From positions 64,001 to 128,000 of the forward strand of contig CM000433.1 of NCBI GenBank assembly GCA_000165345.1: a DNA stretch of 64,000 nucleotides, given 5' to 3'. Every line of letters begins with the position of its first letter. The stretch's first letter is position 1. Positions 647 through 64,000 of this stretch are shown here, piece after piece. The notes beneath the pieces were generated by a model that worked only from the letters and a program-made list of their open reading frames with translations, was not told the origin of the DNA and ran no database searches. Position numbers and translations under genes: made by a program.

Positions 647-1211
647 ATTAATTAATTTACTCTGTAATCAACCCGTATACATTAATTCATAGAATGTATG
701 TAATATTTGAAACTATCTTTTATTTTTTCTTTTATTATTTATTTATTATTTTTTTTAATTAAATTAAAAAAAAACTTGGTATTAATTTTTTTTTATTTGA
801 ATCATGAGGGGCGCTCTATTTCCTATTTTTATATTACGTGGAGATTATTGAAATTTGCTATTAATAATATACATGCAAATATTAACCCGCTCAAACACGT
901 AATTATCAAATTTTTACATGTATTTTATAATTTAATTTAGCTATATAATATATAATAATGACTAATAAAGGCTCTAATTAAGTAATTGAACAACGATAAT
1001 TAAAATAATAAAATTAAAGAAAATAAAAACATTTCAAGTGTGAAATAGAATAATTTTACAAAAAAAAAGAAAAAAATTAAATCTATATTTTAGTAATTAA
1101 TGAATAAATTTGATAAGAATTTATGAAGCAAAATTATTAAAACTAACAATAAAGTATTAAGTTCTTTTTTAGATTAAATTTTTGAAAAAAAATTAAGATT
1201 GGTTAAAAAAA

Positions 1212-3564: not shown

Positions 3565-3968
3565 TTTACATTTAAATATATCAGCTATAAACTAAATAAT
3601 ATTAACTTATATTAAAATATTATTTTATATCTTCTCCTTCTTACTTAAATTATAAATTTTGTTTAATTAATTACAAATCAATTTTAATAATAACTTTTTT
3701 CTTTCAAAATTAACTTAATTTATATTAATTTTGAACTATATTTATTCTCTTAATATTCTTTACTATAAAATAATTCAAATTTGTATCATGGAGATAAATA
3801 TATGACCGGATTTATAAATAAATTTTCTCAATTCCTTTTAATGTTATTAATTTTAATTTAATTAATCTATTAAGGGAAAAAAAATCATCCAAAATGTAAA
3901 TTTAGACCTTTAATACCTCCAACTATGAAATATTTTTATATTAATAATAAAAATTACTTTAAAATTAC

Positions 3969-3984
3969 GTGTGGCGCCAAAATA
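3969..3984. promoter_or_regulatory. E2F-like GGCGCC-core site (ACGTGTGGCGCCAAAA) in the promoter of the G-patch gene
   Basis: Isolated GC-rich motif in a spacer that is otherwise above 85% AT, about 400 bp upstream of the G-patch ATG. It matches the TTTSGCGC/GCGCCAAA E2F consensus half (established knowledge). The same core recurs at 30109, 39277, 44473, 54257 and 56991. Confidence 0.3.
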
Positions 3985-23095: not shown

Positions 23096-23155
23096 ATACC
23101 GGTATTTAAAATTACGTGTAAAAAAATTTCCACATGCAATAATATTACGTGTAAT
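23096..23155. promoter_or_regulatory. Second copy of the ATACCGGTAT / ATTACGTGTAA / TTTCCACATG composite module (plus an extra ATTACGTGTAAT)
   Basis: Same element order as at 16045-16091, about 650 bp upstream of the hydrolase ATG (22449) and 3' of the Naa25-like gene. Confidence 0.4.
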
Positions 23156-39908: not shown

Positions 39909-42900
39909 ATGCAAAAAAAAAAAGATGATGAAATAATAATTGAAAAAGGAGTAGAAGATGAAATTTTACATCCAATTTCAACCAATTGTACCATTGATGA
40001 AATTTCTCCACCAATTTCATTTCCATTGGACATAAGCATTAATGAGCAATTATTTGAGAGTGATTATTGGGATGATTATTTATCAGATTCTGAAACAGAC
40101 TATTGTGATAACTTTAATGTTAAAGATAAAGTTCATCCAACTAAACGAGTTTGGAATGATAACTTAGAAAGATCCTGCGGAGTATGCAATTATATAGAAA
40201 ACTACACTGAACTCTCAAATATGATAAAATGTGAAGGTTACTGCAGAAAACCATACCACTTAAAATGCGTCGGACTCGAAGAATTACCAAATACTCGATG
40301 GAAATGCCAAAACTGCATAAATAATCTTGTTTTTTGCAATATCTGCAACTCATTCAGCAATAAATCTAGCTGTAATTTTCTTAAATGTTATCATCCAATA
40401 TGTATGAGATTCTTCCACACTCAATGTTTACTTTATTATCAAAATAATATTATTTGGACCTTCAATAATTCATGTGGACAAAAGTGCGTGGCGCCTGACG
40501 AAAATGCATGTATGCACCCTGAGATAAATATAGGTGGTAAAATATTGAAAAAAATATTTGGCACAGAAAATGTGAATGAAGAAGAAGTAACTTCAAAGTT
40601 ATTGAATGAATTTGGATTTAAGTTCATTTGTGATCGTCATTATTGCTCATCTTGTAGTGACTATAATAAAAACAAGAGAATTTTGAAAAATGAAACTCAA
40701 ATTGAAATTTCAAGAAAAAAAAGAGTTATATTTAAATTAGATGATCCTGATGATTTATTCTACTGCATTAAATGCAATTCAGGGTATCACAGCCATTGTC
40801 TACATCCTGATTCTATTAAATTAGTAAATGGGGTTTGTATTTGTTATAAACATATACACGATCAAAGTGATATGATATTGGGTAGGTATAATATTAAAGA
40901 TGAAATTGACTCTAAGTTAAAAATACAGTTACAGAATTGTTTGAAGTCTAAGAATGGAAAAAGATTAAATAAGGAGCTAAAATTGGCATTAATACAAAAA
41001 ATAGTTAATCATTTAGAATCTTCAGAGTTTAATCTTAATTCATTACCATTCCAACTTCCTGGACAGTCAAAAGACTGGTTATGTATTGAAATAGAAAATC
41101 TAATTAATGAACATAATTTGAAATATGAGAGTCAAAAGGCCATAAATTTTTTACAAAATTATGGATTTACGCATATTAGAAGAAATATCTATTTAGAAAA
41201 TATTAACGACTCCCAAGATGAAGAATTTGAGACATTATCAGACACAGGTCATTCAGGAAGCAAAAATAAACAAAAAAAAGAAAAAAATATTAAAAATAAT
41301 CAAAATTTAAAGAAAAAAATATCTACATTAAATAAAAAAGATAAAATATTCAATGAAAAATGTGTTTGCAAAACAATTTGTGAAAAAGATACTTGCCAGA
41401 ATGCTGCAATGTTTATTGAATGCAATTCAAATATATGTGGGCTGGATGAAGGAATTCAGAAAAAAAATTGTATGAATAGAATATTTAATAGTAATAATAA
41501 CAAATTCTTAGATAATCAAAAGAAAATTATTTTAAAGAATTTAAAAGTTATAGATGCTGGAGAAAAAGGATTTGGTATTACTACTAATATGACTATTCCA
41601 AAAGATACTTTTATTATAGAATATGTCGGAGAAATATTAACTAGAGAAAATTACTTAAAAAGAGTTGAAAAATATAAGGAAAGAGAATTAGAATCAAGAA
41701 AAAAATCTATAATAATGGATTATTATAAAGAAGATCATGAGTTTAATGAAGACTTTGTCTTACCAAAAGATACTAGAGAAAGGCATTGGTACTGTATGGA
41801 GATTGGAAATGACTATATTATTGATAGTACAAATAAAGGAAATTTGAGTAGACTAATTAATCATAGTTGTGATCCAAATTGTATTGCGCAAAAATGGTTA
41901 GTAGGGAACGAATGTAGAGTTGGTATTTTCTCAAAAAGAGAAATTTTACCAAATGAAGAACTTACATATGATTACTCATTCACAGCTTTTGATATTGGTT
42001 TTAAATGTAAATGTAATTCTCCTTCATGCAAGGGAAGAATTGGAATAGAAAACTTTAAAGAAACTAATCAAGAACTTATTAAGAAAAGAAATTTACTATG
42101 TAAGAACACGAATATGATAAATTCATTCACAAATCTAAATAAATCATTATTTAATAATCCAATTTGTTCAGAAATAGATGAGATCTTTACGTCAAGATAT
42201 GATTATATTAATGACAATCCAGAATTTTACCATAAATTAGAAAAATATTGTGATAAAATTAGCAAATATAATCAAGTATTACATGATCATGTTACAAATG
42301 GGATTCAAATTTATCCATATGATTTCAAATTCAGAAATTCATTATATGGTTATACAAGCCTTTTATATTTTGATTCTCCTGATATAATTTCAGATTGGTA
42401 TTTTAAAAAATCAAAAAATATTGTTTTAATGAATAAACCATGGATTATTCTTCCCTTCGCATTTAATTCACGAGAATTTACTTATTTAAAATATCCATTA
42501 AATATGAATTATTTAAAAAAACAAGTATGTAAACGTTTAACTATTTCTTTGGATAAAAGCAATCCAAAACTAAGTAATAATTCAATTTTCTGGCATTTAT
42601 TTGATTTAGGGATTGGAAGTGATGAATGTTGTAATATTTGTAATAATCCCGGTACTTTAATTACGTGTGACTATTGTTATGATTCATTTCATAAATATTG
42701 CTTATATAATAATGAAATTCCAAATAATTTGAAAAGATCACGACTTTCTTATAATTATAATAAAGTTGAGGAAAAGATTAAATGTAGAAATTGTATGGAA
42801 AATGAGTTGATATCAGTTTATTGGCTTAAAACTACCTATAAGCGAAGAAGGTACAACTATTTTTTAAGACATAAATTACATTCTATTCCATTATATATTA

Positions 42901-45547: not shown

Positions 45548-49846
<4,299 letters not shown>

Positions 49847-49888
49847 ATAAATACAAGTATAAATACTAAATATAAAGTATAACCATTT

Positions 49889-50906
49889 CTAGTTTTTATT
49901 AAACATTCTTTTATATTTATCAGTATTGGAATTCTTATATTTACTTTCCATTAAAACAATATCATTTCTTAGTTTAATAAAGGCTGATTTGTCATCAATT
50001 TGGTTGGATAAAACTTTATCAATAATTTCTATAGCTTTATTAAATTCATAAATATTTATATAAGCTTGTGAAAGTCTATATAATGCCTTTAAAGTTATAA
50101 ATAAGAATTTATTGGGAATTTATTTAAAAAGTAAATAATTATAAAATAAGGGTATAATGGAAAATATATTATAAGTTTATACTTACTTTAATATTATTAG
50201 GGTCATTTTTTAGTACATTATTACAATGAAGCATAGCCATATTAAATTCCTATATTTATAAACTTTTATTATATGAATATATGGAATAAATGAATAAATA
50301 AACTTACATTAATTTTTAGAAAGCATGCAGACAAATTGAGATTAATACGTGTAATAAGTTGGTTATATTCTTCCTCTAGATTCTTGTTTTCAGGAAAAGT
50401 ATAATCTACATAAATGAGTGCATTCTTGTACTCCAATATTGCTTCTTCAATTTTATTATCTTTGTATTTAATATTTCCTTCCTAAAAGTTAAAAAAGTTA
50501 TTATTATTATTGGTATTAAATATTGGCAAATTATATTATTAAATTTGTAAAAAAAAAGAAGAAATGAATAATAACTTCTAGAGAATGAATTTGGATAATC
50601 TTGTGATTTAGAATAAATGAAATAAGAAGATTTGTCATTATTTCTTTCTATTGATAATATTAATGGAAAGTGGGGAAGAAAGAGGAGAAAGAAAAAACAA
50701 AATAGATGGGAGGAAGAAACAAATCAACTTACATCACAAAATAGTCTGATAGCTTTTAGCTTATCAGTTGTAGATCTTTCATATAATTCTCTTTCTTTAC
50801 TTCTATCGTGGCTACATCCTTGATTTTTCTTTATTAAATCATTATATTTGTCATAATTATCTAAAATTTTCTGGCAAAACTCGTACTCACTCCTTGTTGT
50901 CTCCAT
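49889..50906 (-). CDS. Four-exon gene encoding a small (about 200 aa) TPR-repeat protein (FKBP-C-terminal / TTC9-like TPR arrangement)
   Basis: Exon 1 is 50733-50906 (MET...AIRLFCD; GTAAGT donor at 50732-50727). Exon 2 is 50308-50481 (EGNIKYKDNKIEEAILEYKNAL...NLNLSACFLKIN; GTAAGT donor at 50307-50302). Exon 3 is 50187-50249 (EFNMAMLHCNNVLKNDPNNIK; GTAAGT donor at 50186-50181). Exon 4 is about 49889-50087 (ALYRLSQAYINIYEFNKAIEIIDKVL...NKN*). All junctions are phase 0 with TTTTAG / ATATAG / TTTAAAG acceptors. The final-exon boundary is accurate to plus or minus 1-2 nt. Confidence 0.6.
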
Positions 50907-50967
50907 TTATACTATTTGCAAAAAAAATATATAGTTATTGTGAGTTTTCTTAAAATATTACAGATTA

Positions 50968-50987
50968 ACACGTATGGCGGGAACATG
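50968..50987. repeat. Left copy of a 20-bp inverted repeat ACACGTATGGCGGGAACATG
   Basis: 19/20 identical to the reverse complement of 52708-52727. It lies 62 bp upstream of the TPR gene ATG. Confidence 0.7.
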
Positions 50988-51133
50988 CTTTTATAAAAAT
51001 AAATATTTTTCTTAGAAAAAAATATAAGAGAATAAAGTAAATCAAGCATTGGAAATACACATATCAATACTTTATTATGCTAGAAAATCTATAATTTTAG
51101 TAACTAACAACAAATTAGAATTGGAAGAAAACG

Positions 51134-51172
51134 ATGTATGTATGTATGTATGTATGTATATATATATATAGA
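51134..51172. repeat. (ATGT)6-(TA)7 compound microsatellite
   Basis: gtatgtatgtatgtatgtatgtatatatatatatag. Confidence 0.85.
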
Positions 51173-51515
51173 ACAATACAAAAAGTTACAAGCTCGAAGT
51201 AGTAGTCAATCTTTCCCTGTACTATTCTTTTTCTCCCTCTATTTTTCTTTTTTTTTCTTTTTATAATATAAATCATATGTTTCCTGTATACAATTCAAGT
51301 TTGAAATTAAGCGAAAACATTACATACAAGTAGAGACATTACAAATTTCCTCTCACAATAATTATTTCACTATTTCTATTGATTTGATTTTCTTCATTTC
51401 TTATATCTAAATAAGGGTATGTTGAGTTGTAATGTGGGAAATTTATATTATAAAATAATATTAATCCAAGTTAAGATTAATACTAATTATAATATTTTAA
51501 TTGAAAGTAATTTAT

Positions 51516-52034
51516 TTATCCATACAATGGAGAAACCATACTTTCTAATTTGCCCTTACTTTCATTGTATTTAGTGACAAATTGTTCAGGAATTGCAAGT
51601 TCTTTCCAGTCACCTTCTTCTTCTCCTGGAAAGAGTAAATTCATTTCACTTGATTTACTGCTGTAAACCTCAACATTCTTTCCTTCTTTGGATGTGTAGA
51701 TATTAACTTTATTTGATTTATCAAGAGAAATAGTTGGAACAATGCCTGTCATTTGTAATTTAATATCATCACAATTAACAATTTCTATGGAAGAAATTAC
51801 ACCATTTACTAGAAAGATACATCCAACACAATTTTCAATAAAAATACTGTTGACTTTTTGTTCAACAATAATTCTGCTATTTTGAGAGCATCTAACTGAA
51901 ACCTTGTTTTTAATACTTCCTTCTGATAATGTAATAGGATCAGCGCAATTTACATGATTTTCTACAAGATATGTATCCTTTTGTAATTCCACCTTTGGAC
52001 TACCATTTGTAACTACTTGTCTTGCTGCTTTCAT
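51516..52034 (-). CDS. Stand-alone CAP C-terminal (CARP / beta-helix) domain protein, homologous to the actin-binding C-terminal domain of cyclase-associated protein
   Basis: 172 aa from the ATG at 52034. KVELQKDTYLVENHVN...RIIVEQKVNSIFIENCVGCIFLVNGVISSIEIVNCDDIKLQMTGIVPTISLDKSNKVNIYTSKEGKNVEVYSSKSSEMNLLFPGEEEGDWKELAIPEQFVTKYN. It aligns along its whole length with the human CAP1 C-terminal domain (…WRVENQENVSNLVIEDTELKQ...[62 protein letters not shown]), from memory. No N-terminal helical, Pro-rich or WH2 portion lies within about 740 bp of AT-rich upstream DNA. GGT/GGC-rich codon usage. Confidence 0.7.
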   Translation of the reverse strand: MKAARQVVTNGSPKVELQKDTYLVENHVNCADPITLSEGSIKNKVSVRCSQNSRIIVEQKVNSIFIENCVGCIFLVNGVISSIEIVNCDDIKLQMTGIVPTISLDKSNKVNIYTSKEGKNVEVYSSKSSEMNLLFPGEEEGDWKELAIPEQFVTKYNESKGKLESMVSPLYG

Positions 52035-52707
52035 TTTCTTTTCTTTTTTCAAATAAATTTGCGATTTTCAAAATAACTATTTTAAAGTAATTCAATTTAC
52101 ATATAAATATAAGTATATATATTAGTTAATATAATAATTTAGAAAATTATTATTTACTAATAATTTAAGAAATAATGAAATTATATAATTATATAATTTT
52201 TTCAATTATAGGTTTTTTTTTGCATGCATTTAGATATTAAATATTTTATTCATTTAATACTTTATGAATATCCAAGTGGATTTTTTTTTTTTTTTTATAA
52301 ATAATTAATAATTTTTGGATATTCTTATAATCCCTAACTATTTTAATAATTGTTTTCTGGTTTTTTAAATTTCTATTAAGAAAATAAAACTTTACGTATA
52401 ATTTCAAAATTTGATAGATCTTTCACTTTAATTCAATCCAATTGCATGTAATTCGAATCTGAGATTTTAATACTTTCAAATTTTATCAGATTTGGGTTTT
52501 TCCCGCCAAAACAAAATGATATTAATTATATTAAAATAAGAGAAGAATAAGTAGAATTAGAAATTAGGAATAGAGGTTTAGGAATAGAGAGAAGAAAATA
52601 AAGAATAAAAAATGAGGATACATTTAAAAAAAATGAGAAATAAAATGTAAAAAGAGTTAATAAGATATTGATAATTATTTTAACAAAAAAATTGACATTA
52701 AAAAATA

Positions 52708-52727
52708 CATGTTACCGCCATACGTGT
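52708..52727. repeat. Right copy (inverted) of the 20-bp repeat: CATGTTACCGCCATACGTGT
   Basis: Reverse complement is ACACGTATGGCGGTAACATG. It lies 63 bp 3' of the RING gene stop and about 675 bp upstream of the CAP-C gene ATG. Confidence 0.7.
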
Positions 52728-52789
52728 ATTTATGAATTATATTAAATATGAAAGGGGGGGGGGAAATAGAGAACAAAAAAGAGTCAAAT

Positions 52790-53746
<957 letters not shown>

Positions 53747-54256
53747 TAAAATTTGTAAAATTACCGTATAGTTTACTATTTACCTTTATTATTATTAATT
53801 TAATCTTAAATAGTGTGTTTTTACTCCTTAAACACAAATATTTATATACATATATATTTATATATATATATATATATATAAATATATGTATATTGCTTTT
53901 ATTAATAATTTAATGTTAATTCATTTAATCCCAGAGATAACTAGTTATTTACTTTATCTTGTTAAAAATATGACCCAAAATATTTTTATAATATTACCAT
54001 GCAATTTATATTCACATATTTATCTTATATAAGCTAATCATTTATTAGAAAAGTATTGATAATATATAATAAATTATTACTTTTATATATGAACATAAAT
54101 TTCTATATCATATAGTATAGTATTCTATACAAATACAATAAACAATTTAATGAATAATTTTCATTCAATTTCATTACAAGTAATAATTCATAGTCTATTC
54201 TTCCATAAATCCTGTTAAAATTCAATTTTGAATTTATTGCACATTTACCGCCACTT

Positions 54257-54268
54257 TATGGCGCCACA
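54257..54268. promoter_or_regulatory. E2F-like TATGGCGCCACA flanked by CCACTT/AAGTGG inverted repeat and a TTTACCGCCAC element
   Basis: The sequence acatttaccgccactttatggcgccacattcaagtgg lies about 165 bp upstream of the small plus-strand gene at 54428 and about 515 bp upstream of the RING gene ATG. Confidence 0.35.
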
Positions 54269-54427
54269 TTCAAGTGGTATTTTTTTTTTAATTTTATTAT
54301 AATACTAATAGCATTGAGTTTAATCGTAATTTTTAACAATTATATGTTATTGAAATATATGTAAAAATAATAAAGCACACACTTGCATTTACTTAAAGTT
54401 AAATAATAACTGGTTAGATTCAGAAGA

Positions 54428-55034
<607 letters not shown>

Positions 55035-57182: not shown

Positions 57183-57905
57183 ATGCAAGAATCAATACAC
57201 GTAATTAAAGAATATAAAGTGGGTAAAATGACGTGGGATGGTAAAATTGTGAAAGCATGTACTGATAAAGGAAAATTACAATTTATTAAAGAATTGGATG
57301 GAAATACACATAAAATCAGATGGTATAATATAGATAAAGAAATTAATGAAGATGAAATAATAGTAGAAAATGAAATTAATTTTGATATAATTAAGGAAAG
57401 TAAGAGTAATAATGTTTTTGTATTAAAAAAAAACTCCAAGCCATTAAGTATTTACTGGATACAAGATAGCAAGTTAATTTTGGATGATCTTATAAATGAT
57501 TTGAATACTCAGATAAAGTTAATAACTAATAATTTAAATGAAACTATAAGGAGTGTACTTGAACAAATGAACAATAATAATAATAATAAAAGAAGAATCT
57601 CACTATCGGAAATATTAACAAGTGAAATTATTAATGAGCTTAAGCAAGACCAAGATTTAATTGAAGAACTTAAAGAGCATATGCCTTCAAATCAAAGAAA
57701 TCTTCAAGATATTAACTCAGTGATTAATTGTCCACAAGTTAAATATACTATGAGATTATTGGACGAATCAATATATTCTGAACAAATATTTACACTCTCA
57801 ACTGCTCTTGGATTAGATATCAATTTTGATTCATTAATCAATAAAAATCCAATGCAAGTTTTTATTAATGCTCTAAATAAAAAATATAATCCAGAAGAAA
57901 AATAA
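57183..57905 (+). CDS. adrm1: Proteasomal ubiquitin receptor Rpn13/ADRM1 homolog (Pru domain + DEUBAD-like C-terminus)
   Basis: The N-terminal Pru domain VIKEYKVGKMTWDGKIVKACTDKGKLQFIKELDGNTHKIRWYNIDK...NVFVLKKNSKPLSIYWIQDSK parallels human ADRM1 [42 protein letters not shown]...[22 protein letters not shown], from memory. Helical C-terminal region. Confidence 0.75.
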   Translation: MQESIHVIKEYKVGKMTWDGKIVKACTDKGKLQFIKELDGNTHKIRWYNIDKEINEDEIIVENEINFDIIKESKSNNVFVLKKNSKPLSIYWIQDSKLILDDLINDLNTQIKLITNNLNETIRSVLEQMNNNNNNKRRISLSEILTSEIINELKQDQDLIEELKEHMPSNQRNLQDINSVINCPQVKYTMRLLDESIYSEQIFTLSTALGLDINFDSLINKNPMQVFINALNKKYNPEEK

Positions 57906-58975: not shown

Positions 58976-59367
58976 CTTTATCGTTTTATTATTGTTATTT
59001 CTATTTTTTTTTTTTTTGGCCCTTTATTTCCAAATTCAAACAAAATTCCAACTTCTATTTAAAATAATGGGTTTTATTGTATATTATTTTAATTATGTAA
59101 TTTGAATCGTTTAATATTTAATTTATTATTATTACTTTTTTCACCCTCGCTTTTTTTTTTTTCCTCTGACCCGCAAATAAAAAAAAATAAATAATTTAGT
59201 TACCGTCCACTTTGTAAAAAATGACGTTTAAAATGCACAATTTATTTTGGCGGTAATGATGAAATACAATAAATTATATTAAGAATTAGATATTATTTAT
59301 TAAATAAGTAGGGAGAAAGAATTACTTTGAAAGTATCTTAGAATCTCTATAATAAATAAATCACGAG

Positions 59368-63200: not shown

Positions 63201-64000
63201 TGTAGATATATCTACAGCTGGTGACACTAATACGCTTGTAATAATTTGAGAAAATAATATTGACTTAATACTATTACTATTGCTTTTCAATTCTTCCCAA
63301 GTTCCAATATTTATTGCATTGGTTAAACCTTCAATATCATATTTTTCTTCGGTTATAGCGTTATCTACTTTAACTAAAGCATTTAAAGTCCTTTTTTTGT
63401 TATTAGAATTTTCACCAGATAAATCTGGAATGTTAGATTCTAAATCAAGAATCTGCTTAATTTCCTTATTTTTATAATTAAAAACAAACATCTCATCATC
63501 TATGTTTCTCATTTCTTTTTCATAGTCCTCTTCAATATTTTGTTTTTCATCTTGAACATTAAATTCCAATTTTTTATTGCTATTCAAAGGTGAAAATTTA
63601 TTAGTCCAAGGAAATTTACTCGAATTTAGTATTAAGTCTATATTCTTCTTTTGTTCGTTACATTCATCATTATTTCCTTCCTCAACAAATAAGTTATTTG
63701 GTATTTTCAAGTTTAAAAAATTATTTATTGCAATATCTACAACATTTGAATAAGAGTTTGTTGAAAATAACCAACAAACTCCTTCTATTACACTTTGCGG
63801 TGAAATCTTATAAAATCCATCATCTACATCATATTTCATTCTTTTATACGAGTATCTCGTTGACCTACCACGTAATTCTTGTGCATGAATTGGCGGTAAA
63901 ATGTCGTTTGTTGATTCGTTCTTCTCATCCACATGGAAATCATTACTGTCATTATTGTTTTTATTATTATTATTGTAATTTTTGTTAAATTTGTTAATAG
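60201..64000 (-). CDS. Partial CDS (C-terminal 1240+ codons; N-terminus lies beyond the window end): large alpha-helical repeat (HEAT/ARM-like) protein, unknown function
   Basis: The frame stays open from the stop at 60201-60203 up to position 64000 (the ORF-track start at 63932 is an alternative GTG). Asn-rich with long helical-repeat character. No catalytic motifs recognised. Confidence 0.6.
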   Translation of the reverse strand, partial: INKFNKNYNNNNKNNNDSNDFHVDEKNESTNDILPPIHAQELRGRSTRYSYKRMKYDVDDGFYKISPQSVIEGVCWLFSTNSYSNVVDIAINNFLNLKIPNNLFVEEGNNDECNEQKKNIDLILNSSKFPWTNKFSPLNSNKKLEFNVQDEKQNIEEDYEKEMRNIDDEMFVFNYKNKEIKQILDLESNIPDLSGENSNNKKRTLNALVKVDNAITEEKYDIEGLTNAINIGTWEELKSNSNSIKSILFSQIITSVLVSPAVDISTDGLYKVSRTLLNNNQLMNVLKHGQLILTSWELLLKRISESEDKDIITSSIETYGEGVNMAWNLLVERITTAFEILFYKYRLLIRLILNKERIILNNKSDLKMEQVFIEILVKTLLSETKELLTNILLITNINDEEYTNEINEDYFVYLDNILYYNELNLHNIQCMNENSINNNEALNTSNNLRNINIVFILWIYNFVLEQRIKVLHNLFFRFYHYDSKANQEELIFEKVFQWIINENDMNNDVINEENENQIFFDYNKLFIFCFNNFTKCISDYNTKSNIFLSQLKRLIMNTPKIPTNFLRLLFNQWLFSNNYCMQLSTLNHEVAAQTDDSMLLVKREYALNIFYELLNSNYPIDNIRKVSYFVLIVAFLSYNSDSSNLNFLDNICLFLENVEPMHIESSNIDNCGESINLNRNINFFEFTKELFTVKNIQSNKKINIQLNQVNNLRNTFVENLISVLYCNINEVKNDFYNNEVTHLKTYLNEEMNNWNDAEIYGEIWIIVLSLVLVSIIVSDEISCDNNDEIITDLFNTNKFLIIAAKNIQEMIKNELMPKYKKTYDLNKHIYNHFKVGVKQDFDNEQDKDFEDEFNKSNVNERIQSMVIDQNQGSDTLMETMNLENIENNSQNIEKIYLSYVEDLFSRSCLIFKYYCLRYPCLINYLFKLYSRIVDEINKNQQINSSDNNHNNDYNILTLLNKIKDLFNNLFVEIILLFKHHYSSEKGNLDILIKEYLRILDIYSSDHIKYNYLFDFIIQILGNINFSNLELCLKVYNIFKDTQNINIIIPIIGYYDLQKIKELLPVIISKSDKSMIKECIKNIVTNPFALKDKVISSSDLLLLLISYSYPDVNYVDKKKTVDIIDCCFELTQSNPPIFDSEIIASVIGKIVQDEKSVFPRTLGRTLVLSVMYLPTVRSFISSFVISSLIRNYKVWEDTLTWRGVKHCIQKLWCDYKASIFPSLILLPQIEFQGIFNELIETNSDLRVDCMDIIKKTVSLVKYYIFH

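What the first reader, a model, noticed from the sequence alone, without database searches (positions are those of the whole stretch)
50968..52727. 20-bp inverted-repeat pair (ACACGTATGGCGGKAACATG) flanking the stand-alone CAP-C gene, 1.76 kb apart
ACACGTATGGCGGGAACATG at 50968-50987 and the reverse complement of 52708-52727 (ACACGTATGGCGGTAACATG) match 19/20 and are in inverted orientation. They bracket exactly one gene, the unusual CAP C-terminal-domain-only gene. There are two hypotheses. (a) They are terminal inverted repeats of a DNA-transposon-like unit that captured a CAP gene fragment, which would explain why a normally C-terminal domain exists as an independent gene. (b) They are two instances of a longer promoter element, since the shared core TTACCGCCAYACGTG also occurs at 32188-32205 and, shortened (TTACCGCCA), at 54245, 59203 and 59250. 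No clean target-site duplication is visible (flanks ...gatta / tattta...), which weakens (a).
Basis: seen in the sequence. Interest (0 to 1): 0.55.

Follow-up and report, generated by a model that had tools for sequence, protein, structure and literature searches.

The report
Two conserved E2F-type promoter boxes
The 20-bp inverted repeat around the Cryptosporidium parvum CAP gene is not a transposon end pair but two separately conserved copies of the parasite's common E2F-type promoter box, one pointing at the neighbouring TPR gene and the other at a published antisense non-coding RNA.

Summary
In detail: ACACGTATGGCGGKAACATG occurs at 50968-50987 (+) and 52708-52727 (-), matching 19/20, with none expected by chance. 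The window is Cryptosporidium parvum (99.96% identical to CP044418.1). The CAP gene is cgd5_440, identical to PDB 2B0R. A C-terminal-domain-only CAP is normal for all Apicomplexa, so no gene capture needs explaining.

The transposon reading fails. There is no target-site duplication. RING-CAP-TPR order is the same in 8 Cryptosporidium species. Both arms sit at orthologous positions in 7 species (one recognisable in C. felis) and drift independently. The genus has no known transposable elements.

What is conserved is a 16-bp core, TT[C/A]CCGCCA[T/C/A]ACGTGT. It is the known C. parvum E2F/DP-like box plus a YACGTGT extension I could not find described. The boxes point away from each other. Arm 2 ends 88 nt before the 5' end of the published antisense lncRNA Cp_lnc_205, over the RING gene's 3' end. 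CAP has its own invariant E2F box, 462 nt upstream.

Verdict: ordinary promoter elements of a known kind. Interest is low.

The parts
50968..50987 (-). Arm 1. On the - strand it reads CATGTTCCCGCCATACGTGT. The conserved 16-bp core TTCCCGCCATACGTGT is 50968-50983. It points leftward to the TPR gene, with the core 3' end 61 nt before the ATG.
   Evidence: The core is the top-ranked conserved 16-mer of the 616-bp CAP-stop to TPR-ATG intergenic region (0.97 vs mean 0.46). It is identical in parvum, tyzzeri, hominis, meleagridis, chipmunk genotype I and ubiquitum. C. canis has one change (T to A at the variable position 10), and C. felis has TTGCCGCCACACGTGT.
52708..52727 (+). Arm 2. On the + strand it reads CATGTTACCGCCATACGTGT. 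The conserved core TTACCGCCATACGTGT is 52712-52727. It points rightward, into the 3' end of the RING gene on the antisense strand.
   Evidence: It is the only conserved block in the first ~280 nt after the RING stop (rank 5 of the whole intergenic region, 0.80 vs mean 0.49). It is present in 7 species, partly decayed in ubiquitum (CCGCCACATATAT) and canis (CCGCCACACGTCA), and not found in felis.
49889..50906 (-). Spliced TPR-repeat gene (4 exons, 202 aa) immediately downstream of CAP on the same strand. It is the inferred target of arm 1.
   Evidence: It is called as a 202-aa TPR_2/TPR_19 gene in two C. parvum assemblies and in all other species. The ATG and GTAAGT donors are visible.
51516..52034 (-). 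CAP (cgd5_440), the 172-aa C-terminal CARP-domain-only cyclase-associated protein. It is the gene bracketed by the arms.
   Evidence: Pfam CAP_C at 6.7e-46. It is 100% identical to PDB 2B0R, C. parvum, and is named cgd5_440 in PMC3305300.
52816..53123 (+). Published antisense lncRNA Cp_lnc_205 (CPATCC_0022233), 308 nt, overlapping the 3' part of the RING CDS. It is the inferred target of arm 2.
   Evidence: The sequence from DataSheet_1 of PMC7840661 maps exactly to the window + strand at 52816-53123, 88 nt after the arm 2 core. Antisense expression is also detected at the syntenic locus in C. hominis and C. baileyi (sheet S8).
52790..53746 (-). RING-finger (C3HC4) protein gene, upstream neighbour of CAP. 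Arm 2 lies 62 nt past its stop codon.
52497..52511 (.). Canonical symmetric E2F box TTTTTCCCGCCAAAA, 462 nt upstream of the CAP ATG. Its TTT.GGCGGG core is conserved in all 8 species. It is the likely CAP promoter element.
   Evidence: The conserved block ranks 4th in A2.
52035..52496 (-). Unusually well-conserved ~460-bp stretch between the E2F box and the CAP ATG. It is the inferred long CAP 5' leader. It is context for the finding, not part of the repeat.
   Evidence: Most of the top-ranked conserved 16-mers of alignment A2 fall here. There is no Rfam hit, and no lncRNA was found in the held (truncated) part of the Li et al. set.

Best explanation
The two arms are two independent copies of a short cis-regulatory element of Cryptosporidium, vertically inherited. 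The element is an E2F/DP-type box (TTSCCGCC) fused to a YACGTGT extension. The copies are not the ends of one mobile or structural unit.

The element is asymmetric, with a T-rich side, then the CCGCC core, then AYACGTGT. The two copies point away from each other.
- Arm 1 lies 61 nt upstream of the ATG of the TPR gene downstream of CAP. It most likely acts as that gene's proximal promoter box.
- Arm 2 lies 62 nt past the RING gene's stop codon and 88 nt upstream of the mapped 5' end of the antisense lncRNA Cp_lnc_205. It most likely drives that antisense transcript.
- CAP sits between them by accident of gene order. It has its own conserved canonical E2F box 462 nt upstream of its ATG.

Shown here: the sequence, positions, orientation, cross-species conservation and independence of the two copies; identity of the core with sequences already scored as E2F/DP1 motif instances; and the existence and position of Cp_lnc_205.

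Inferred: that E2F/DP (possibly with a partner recognising ACGTGT) binds these sites, and that each box drives the transcript it faces.
For: 1. Organism and gene. The window is 99.96% identical to C. parvum CP044418.1. CAP equals 2B0R and cgd5_440.

2. Known motif.
- GGCGGG and [C/G]GCGC[G/C] E2F-like boxes are the most abundant upstream motifs in C. parvum (PMC3734150).
- They dominate ATAC-seq open-chromatin peaks (bioRxiv 10.1101/2025.01.17.633476).
- The exact 11-mers of both arms, TTCCCGCCATA and TTACCGCCATA, are listed as E2F/DP1 'motif1' instances upstream of other lncRNAs in table S3 of PMC7840661.
- The window holds 41 SCGCC cores.

3. Footprints.
- The 16-bp core is the best-conserved block of its intergenic region for arm 1, and the only conserved block near the RING stop for arm 2.
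- The outer CATG of the 20-mer is not conserved.

4. Geometry.
- The arm 1 core ends 41-64 nt before the TPR ATG in 7 species.
- The arm 2 core ends 88 nt before Cp_lnc_205, in the same orientation relative to its transcript.
- C. parvum antisense lncRNAs typically start at the 3' end of the sense gene and often have an E2F/DP1 box within 100 bp upstream.
- The authors' 100-bp scan for Cp_lnc_205 missed this box by 4 nt and reported only a G-run.

5. Conservation of the antisense transcript. Cp_lnc_205 antisense expression is conserved in C. hominis and C. baileyi, matching the conservation of arm 2.

6. Independence. Across 7 species there are 23 arm1-only and 27 arm2-only changes against 10 coincident ones. 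The core changes in ubiquitum and canis are not mirrored in the other arm.

7. The extension is selected at these two sites. In the neighbouring RING/small-gene promoter only the 7-8 bp E2F cores are invariant. At the arms, 16 bp are.
Against: - No transcription start site data were available for the TPR gene or for CAP. The arm 1 to TPR link rests on position and conservation.
- The 5' end of Cp_lnc_205 comes from short-read assembly and is approximate.
- Arm 2 lies 104 nt (box start) from that end, slightly further than most motif instances in the published table.
- No protein-binding or chromatin data for these two sites could be consulted. The ATAC-seq paper's supplements are not held.
- Arm 2 is partly decayed in C. 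ubiquitum and C. canis and was not found in C. felis, so it is less constrained than arm 1.
- At a third locus (32193) the ACGT part of the extension is not conserved. 'E2F + YACGTGT' is therefore not established as a general class beyond these two sites.
- Genome-wide copy number could not be measured. Only about 64 kb of C. parvum plus orthologous loci were available.
Confidence: 0.82

Rival explanations
1. Arm 2 is a distal upstream element of CAP, or the shared core of a bidirectional CAP/Cp_lnc_205 promoter, rather than a dedicated lncRNA promoter.
For: Arm 2 lies in the CAP 5' intergenic region, 673 nt from the ATG. CAP and Cp_lnc_205 are head-to-head, and the lncRNA paper argues that many C. 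parvum lncRNAs share bidirectional promoters with the upstream mRNA. E2F sites commonly work in either orientation (established knowledge).
Against: - The correlation of Cp_lnc_205 with its upstream mRNA CPATCC_0022220 (taken to be CAP from its position) is r = -0.4, and the lncRNA is listed as 'NotCorrelated'.
- CAP has its own canonical E2F box whose core is conserved in all 8 species, 211 nt closer, followed by a strongly conserved leader. The ~200 nt between arm 2 and that box are not conserved beyond close relatives.
- Arm 2 is 25-103 nt from the RING stop but 495-673 nt from the CAP ATG in every species where it is recognisable.
Confidence: 0.2
2. The arms are terminal inverted repeats of a DNA-transposon-like unit that carried a CAP gene fragment to this site.
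For: A 19/20 inverted repeat brackets a single small gene 1.76 kb apart.
Against: - There is no TSD and no transposase or other ORF between the arms.
- Gene order and orientation are the same in 8 species, and both arms are already in place in 7 of them.
- The arms diverge independently, and the inner third of each 'TIR' is not conserved.
- CAP-C-only is ancestral to Apicomplexa.
- A dedicated survey found no TEs in 12 Cryptosporidium genomes and no class II TEs in the phylum.
- Each arm has an independent explanation as a promoter box.
Confidence: 0.01
3. The two copies act as a pair that delimits the CAP unit. They could do so as boundary/insulator sites, as a DNA cruciform, as a long-range RNA stem in a RING-CAP-TPR polycistron, or as recombination sites for inversion.
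For: The inverted arrangement is conserved across 7 species. Polycistronic transcripts with E2F motifs in their internal spacers exist in C. parvum.
Against: - There is no compensatory co-variation between the arms. Core changes in ubiquitum and canis break complementarity.
- The CAP segment is never inverted in the 8 species.
- Only 16 nt are conserved, and they coincide with a known protein-binding motif.
- An oriented promoter box pointing at each neighbouring transcript produces an inverted pair without any pairing function.
Confidence: 0.03

Closest known systems
C. parvum E2F-like upstream motifs (Motif 4 TTTGGCGGGAAV and Motif 3 DTTGSCGCCH of Oberstaller et al. 2013, PMC3734150; 'motif1' TTSSCGCCWAA of Li et al. 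2021, PMC7840661)
   Same: Both have a T-rich flank followed by the SSCGCC core. Both are intergenic, lie within ~100 nt of a transcript start and are conserved. The arms' 11-mers are literally among the published motif1 instances.
   Different: The arms carry a further conserved 3' extension (A)YACGTGT, giving a 16-bp invariant block instead of the usual AAA/AAT flank. That extension was not mentioned in any of the motif papers or the 2025 review I searched. Arm 2 has TTACCGCC rather than TTSSCGCC in the parvum/hominis/meleagridis lineage.
E2F/DP1-box promoters of antisense lncRNAs that start at the 3' end of the sense gene in C. parvum (Li et al. 2021)
   Same: Arm 2 sits just past the RING stop codon and faces the antisense lncRNA Cp_lnc_205, which covers the 3' part of the RING CDS. 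This is exactly the pattern described for the class.
   Different: The published scan did not assign this box to Cp_lnc_205 because it starts at -104, outside their 100-bp window. They reported a G-run instead. Cp_lnc_205 is not correlated with its upstream mRNA, unlike the bidirectional-promoter cases.
Class II (TIR) DNA transposons and gene-capturing elements such as Pack-MULEs
   Same: Short inverted repeats flank a small gene.
   Different: There is no TSD, no mobility, no extra copies in the window and ancient fixed synteny. The arms evolve independently, and the host genus has no known TEs.
Composite E2F elements of animals and plants (E2F site next to a second factor's site, e.g. CDE/CHR, or E2F next to an ACGT-core bZIP/bHLH box)
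   Same: An E2F-type core is directly abutted by a second short conserved sequence with an ACGT core. This is a resemblance from general knowledge only.
   Different: No second factor is known in Cryptosporidium. C. parvum is listed with a single non-CCAAT bZIP, but nothing links it to this sequence. The extension is not conserved at a third E2F site.

Membership tests
TIR DNA transposon | Terminal inverted repeats | tested here: met
   A 19/20 inverted 20-mer, but only the outer 16 nt are conserved between species.
TIR DNA transposon | Target-site duplication flanking the repeats | tested here: not met
   The flanks are gatta| and |attta, with no duplication. None is seen in the orthologous loci either.
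TIR DNA transposon | Mobility: extra copies, empty sites or presence/absence polymorphism in relatives | tested here: not met
   There are only two copies in the 64 kb window. The RING-CAP-TPR arrangement is identical in 8 species, and both arms are in place in 7 of them. Genome-wide copy number is not testable with these tools.
TIR DNA transposon | Transposase gene (autonomous) or a related autonomous element in the genome | tested here: not met
   The only ORF between the arms is CAP_C. The literature reports no TE in 12 Cryptosporidium genomes.
Cryptosporidium E2F/DP-type cis-regulatory box | Sequence matches the published consensus (GGCGGG / [C/G]GCGC[G/C] core with a T-rich flank; TTSSCGCCWAA) | tested here: met
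   Arm 1 has TTCCCGCCATA and arm 2 has TTACCGCCATA. Both exact 11-mers are listed as motif1 (E2F/DP1) hits in table S3 of PMC7840661.
Cryptosporidium E2F/DP-type cis-regulatory box | Located in non-coding DNA shortly upstream of a transcription unit | tested here: met
   The arm 1 core ends 61 nt before the TPR ATG. The arm 2 core ends 88 nt before the Cp_lnc_205 5' end. The TSS of TPR itself is not available.
Cryptosporidium E2F/DP-type cis-regulatory box | Purifying selection relative to the surrounding intergenic DNA | tested here: met
   The cores rank 1st and 5th among conserved 16-mers in their intergenic regions. Alignments are A1 and A2.
Cryptosporidium E2F/DP-type cis-regulatory box | Bound by E2F/DP proteins, or lying in an open-chromatin peak | not testable with these tools
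   No binding or ATAC-seq coordinates were accessible. Direct binding of C. parvum E2F/DP to any site appears unreported in the papers read.
Bidirectional promoter shared by an mRNA and an lncRNA | Head-to-head arrangement with positively correlated expression | tested here: inconclusive
   CAP and Cp_lnc_205 are head-to-head, with 781 nt between the CAP ATG and the lncRNA 5' end. The published correlation is r = -0.4, and the lncRNA is in the 'NotCorrelated' list.

The most novel reading that the evidence does not exclude
The 16-bp TT[C/A]CCGCCAYACGTGT block is a distinct, undescribed composite element. It would be an E2F/DP half-site fused to an ACGT-core box read by a second factor, for instance the lone non-CCAAT bZIP of C. 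parvum. It would set the direction of transcription initiation. The divergent pair around CAP would then be the conserved promoters of the TPR mRNA and of an antisense lncRNA that modulates the RING-finger gene. The separate 27-fold excess of ATTACGTGT in the window (7 vs 0.26 expected) would belong to the same second factor.
Probability: 0.2. Interest if true: 0.4.

Novelty: new member of a known kind. Interest (0 to 1): 0.18.

Why it matters
As a transposon, this would have been the first mobile element in a genus thought to have none. It would also have explained the origin of the truncated apicomplexan CAP. Neither holds.

What remains is modest but useful:
- Two clean phylogenetic footprints show that, at some sites, the Cryptosporidium E2F-type box is constrained over 16 bp rather than 8.
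- There is a plausible promoter assignment for a published, evolutionarily conserved antisense lncRNA (Cp_lnc_205). Its upstream motif was missed by 4 nt in the original analysis.
- There is a concrete pair of sites for testing whether E2F/DP boxes in this parasite act directionally.

Tried and rejected
- Rfam scan of 49800-54600. It gave only sub-threshold miRNA-model hits on the (TGTA)n/(TA)n microsatellite. There is no ncRNA family in the arms or in the conserved CAP leader.
- Literature search for ACGTGT or ACACGT as a Cryptosporidium cis-element. All hits were PCR primers. The string is absent from the motif papers and the review.
- Supplements of the polycistron/ATAC-seq preprint. They are not held, so I could not check for a CAP-TPR polycistron or for open chromatin at the arms.
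- Search of the lncRNA FASTA for the conserved CAP leader. It gave no hit, so that stretch is not a listed lncRNA in the held, truncated file.
- Test of 'SCGCCAYACGT is a general conserved composite class'. In the window, 4 of 41 E2F cores carry AYACGT (0.008 expected, P about 2e-10). At the third locus (32193), however, the ACGT is specific to C. parvum. I therefore do not claim a general class.
- ATTACGTGT as a clean promoter motif. It is strongly over-represented, but its copies lie in mixed contexts: intergenic, an intron, and two coding regions. I recorded it only as a side observation.
- RNA/DNA pairing of the arms. Rejected because there is no co-variation.
- An early estimate placed the TPR ATG at 50915. 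This was corrected to 50906.
Full report
**1. Observation**

The pattern ACACGTATGGCGGKAACATG occurs exactly twice in the window, at 50968-50987 (+) and 52708-52727 (-). The copies match 19/20 and are inverted, and 100 dinucleotide-preserving shuffles gave no match. The flanking bases show no target-site duplication. The only protein-coding ORF between the arms is a 172-aa CAP_C-domain gene at 51516-52034 on the minus strand. The primary observation is therefore correct.

Some secondary sites need correcting:
- 32188-32205 reads AAACCGCCACACGT, not TTACCGCCA....
- Exact TTACCGCCA is at 52712, 54245, 59248-59256 (-) and 63891-63899 (-).
- The '59203' site is only TTACCGTCCA.

**2. Where we are**

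The window has 23% G+C and long intronless genes with N-rich runs. The CAP protein is 100% identical to PDB 2B0R, which the cluster look-up identifies as Cryptosporidium parvum. The window DNA is 99.96% identical over 20.5 kb to C. parvum CP044418.1 (GCA_015245375.1). CAP is cgd5_440 (PMC3305300).

[quoted passage not shown] Nothing about the gene requires a capture event.

**3. The local map**

The window's minus strand carries three consecutive genes:
- RING finger, 53746 to 52790.
- CAP, 52034 to 51516.
- A spliced four-exon TPR gene, 50906 to 49889. It is called as 202 aa in two C. parvum annotations and in every other species.

Arm 1 lies between CAP and TPR, and its core ends 61 nt before the TPR ATG. 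Arm 2 lies 62 nt beyond the RING stop codon and 673 nt upstream of the CAP ATG.

**4. The transposon test**

I retrieved the orthologous locus from seven further species: C. tyzzeri, C. hominis, C. meleagridis, chipmunk genotype I, C. ubiquitum, C. canis and C. felis. All have RING-CAP-TPR-large ORF in the same order and orientation. None has an empty site or an inverted CAP segment.

Both arms are present at the orthologous positions, in the same inverted arrangement, from C. parvum out to C. canis. C. felis keeps a recognisable copy only on the TPR side.

Across species the arms change independently. There are 23 changes in arm 1 only, 27 in arm 2 only, and 10 coincident changes in AT-rich flanks. 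The core substitutions in C. ubiquitum (arm 2 becomes CCGCCACATATAT) and C. canis are not mirrored in the partner arm.

A dedicated survey found no transposable elements in twelve Cryptosporidium genomes and no class II elements anywhere in Apicomplexa (PMC9141347). Hypothesis (a) is rejected. So is any model in which the two copies must pair with each other.

**5. What is conserved**

I aligned the two intergenic regions (A1, A2) and scored 16-column windows over five divergent lineages.
- TTCCCGCCATACGTGT (arm 1) is the best-conserved 16-mer of its 616-bp region, scoring 0.97 against a mean of 0.46.
- ACGTATGGCGGTAACA (arm 2) ranks fifth in its 767-bp region, scoring 0.80 against 0.49. It is the only conserved block in the ~280 nt after the RING stop.
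- The outer CATG that stretches the match to 20 nt in C. parvum is not conserved.

The functional unit is therefore a 16-bp core, TT[C/A]CCGCCA[T/C/A]ACGTGT.

**6. What the core is**

GGCGGG and [C/G]GCGC[G/C] 'E2F-like' boxes are the most abundant upstream motifs of C. parvum. They are found upstream of genes in 163 of 200 co-expression clusters (PMC3734150). They are also the dominant motif in sporozoite ATAC-seq peaks (bioRxiv 10.1101/2025.01.17.633476).

The window itself holds 41 SCGCC cores, including TGGCGCCA and TTTGGCGCCAAAA types. The exact 11-mers of the two arms, TTCCCGCCATA and TTACCGCCATA, appear in table S3 of Li et al. 2021 as scored instances of their E2F/DP1 motif TTSSCGCCWAA. 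Membership by sequence is therefore direct.

What is less ordinary is the 3' extension YACGTGT. The evidence on it is mixed:
- Four of the 41 cores in the window are followed by AYACGT, against 0.008 expected (P about 2e-10).
- The extension is invariant at both arms. In the neighbouring RING/small-gene promoter, by contrast, only the 7-8 bp cores stay fixed (A3).
- None of the motif papers or the 2025 review mention an ACGT-containing element. Literature searches for it returned only primers.
- At a third composite site (32193), orthologues keep CCGCCACAC but not the ACGT (A4).

For that last reason I do not claim a general new motif class.

**7. What each copy most likely does**

The element is asymmetric, and the two copies face outward.

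Arm 1 faces the TPR gene. Its core ends 41-64 nt before the TPR ATG in seven species. This is the position expected of a proximal promoter box in a genome whose mean intergenic distance is about 500 bp.

Arm 2 faces the antisense strand of the RING gene. The published lncRNA Cp_lnc_205 (CPATCC_0022233; sequence in DataSheet_1 of PMC7840661) maps exactly to window 52816-53123 on the plus strand. It starts 88 nt after the arm 2 core and overlaps the 3' part of the RING CDS.

That paper reports three relevant things about C. parvum antisense lncRNAs:
- They are biased to the 3' end of the sense gene.
- Their commonest upstream motif is E2F/DP1.
- Many seem to use bidirectional promoters.

For Cp_lnc_205 itself, the authors' 100-bp upstream scan found only a G-run (TTCCCCCCCCC at -60). 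The arm 2 box starts at -104, just outside their window. Cp_lnc_205 antisense expression was also detected at the syntenic locus in C. hominis and the distant C. baileyi (sheet S8). That fits the conservation of arm 2.

Expression is highest in oocysts: 7.24, against 5.6-6.3 at 0 h, 2 h, 24 h and 48 h. The lncRNA is also listed as not correlated with the sense, upstream or downstream mRNAs. Its correlation with the upstream mRNA, taken to be CAP from its position, is r = -0.4.

**8. CAP's own control region**

A canonical symmetric box, TTTTTCCCGCCAAAA, sits at 52497-52511, 462 nt upstream of the CAP ATG. Its TTT.GGCGGG core is conserved in all eight species. The ~460 bp from it to the ATG contain most of the top-ranked conserved blocks of the intergenic region. 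In contrast, the ~200 bp between arm 2 and this box are conserved only among close relatives. This argues that CAP is driven from the nearer box, with a long conserved leader, and that arm 2 is not primarily a CAP element. A bidirectional or distal role is not excluded (rival 1).

**9. Shown versus inferred**

Shown:
- The repeat exists and is non-random.
- The organism and the gene identities.
- Conserved synteny.
- Conservation, orientation and independent drift of the two cores.
- Identity of the cores with published E2F/DP1 motif instances.
- The position of Cp_lnc_205 and of the TPR ATG.

Inferred:
- E2F/DP binding, possibly with a partner that recognises ACGTGT. C. parvum is listed with one non-CCAAT bZIP, which is pure speculation as a candidate.
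- That arm 1 drives TPR and arm 2 drives Cp_lnc_205.
- The long CAP leader.

**10. Verdict**

The inverted repeat is a by-product of two oriented copies of the genus's standard promoter box, pointing at the transcripts on either side of CAP. It is a new instance of a known kind of element. There are two small additions: an unusually long conserved footprint with an undescribed ACGTGT extension, and a probable promoter for a published conserved antisense lncRNA. Interest is low (0.18).

Noticed in passing
window 895-903(-), 3964-3972(+), 23111-23119(+), 23144-23152(+), 42660-42668(+), 54624-54632(-), 57197-57205(-): ATTACGTGT occurs 7 times against 0.26 expected from dinucleotide shuffles. The contexts are mixed: intergenic, inside an intron 8 nt before the 3' splice site (54624), inside the SET-domain ORF (42660), and in codons 5-8 of Rpn13 (57197). 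It shares ACGTGT with the arms. No ACGT-core motif is in the published C. parvum motif lists I read.
   Followed up: partly
window 52035-52511: The ~460 bp upstream of the CAP ATG are far better conserved across 7 species than is typical for intergenic DNA here. The stretch starts at an E2F box (TTTTTCCCGCCAAAA) whose core is conserved in all 8 species. It contains an inverted repeat AATATCCAA...TTGGATATT and a TGCATGCA box. It is probably a long structured 5' leader. There is no Rfam hit and no listed lncRNA.
   Followed up: partly
window 52754-52763: A G10 run lies between arm 2 and Cp_lnc_205. It is what Li et al. scored as the lncRNA's 'E2F/DP1' motif (TTCCCCCCCCC, -60). It is present only in C. 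parvum and C. tyzzeri and decays in C. hominis and C. meleagridis, so it is unlikely to be the functional element.
   Followed up: yes
window 54245-54271: A double E2F box, TTACCGCCACTTTATGGCGCCACATTC, sits in the divergent promoter between the RING gene and a small spliced gene. The TGGCGCC and GGCG(G/C) cores are invariant in 7 species, including C. felis, while their flanks drift.
   Followed up: yes
window 32193-32235 and ~32405-32470: A conserved cluster CCGCCACAC-AGTACCGCA-TTGCCGCCACTTGTCAATTTTG lies in the CDC50/coiled-coil divergent promoter. About 200 bp further on are a conserved CRE-like ATGACGTAAT, TTTTCATGTGGA and AATTGCATG, kept from C. parvum to C. canis or C. felis.
   Followed up: partly
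window 51134-51180: A (TGTA)n(TA)n microsatellite lies in the CAP 3' region. Its length varies between species and assemblies, and it produces spurious sub-threshold miRNA-model hits in Rfam.
   Followed up: yes
whole window: Mean G+C is 22.9%. From memory, that is well below the ~30% usually quoted for the C. parvum genome. The DNA is nevertheless 99.96% identical to a C. parvum chromosome. The first ~30 kb are especially AT-rich (16-24%).
   Followed up: no
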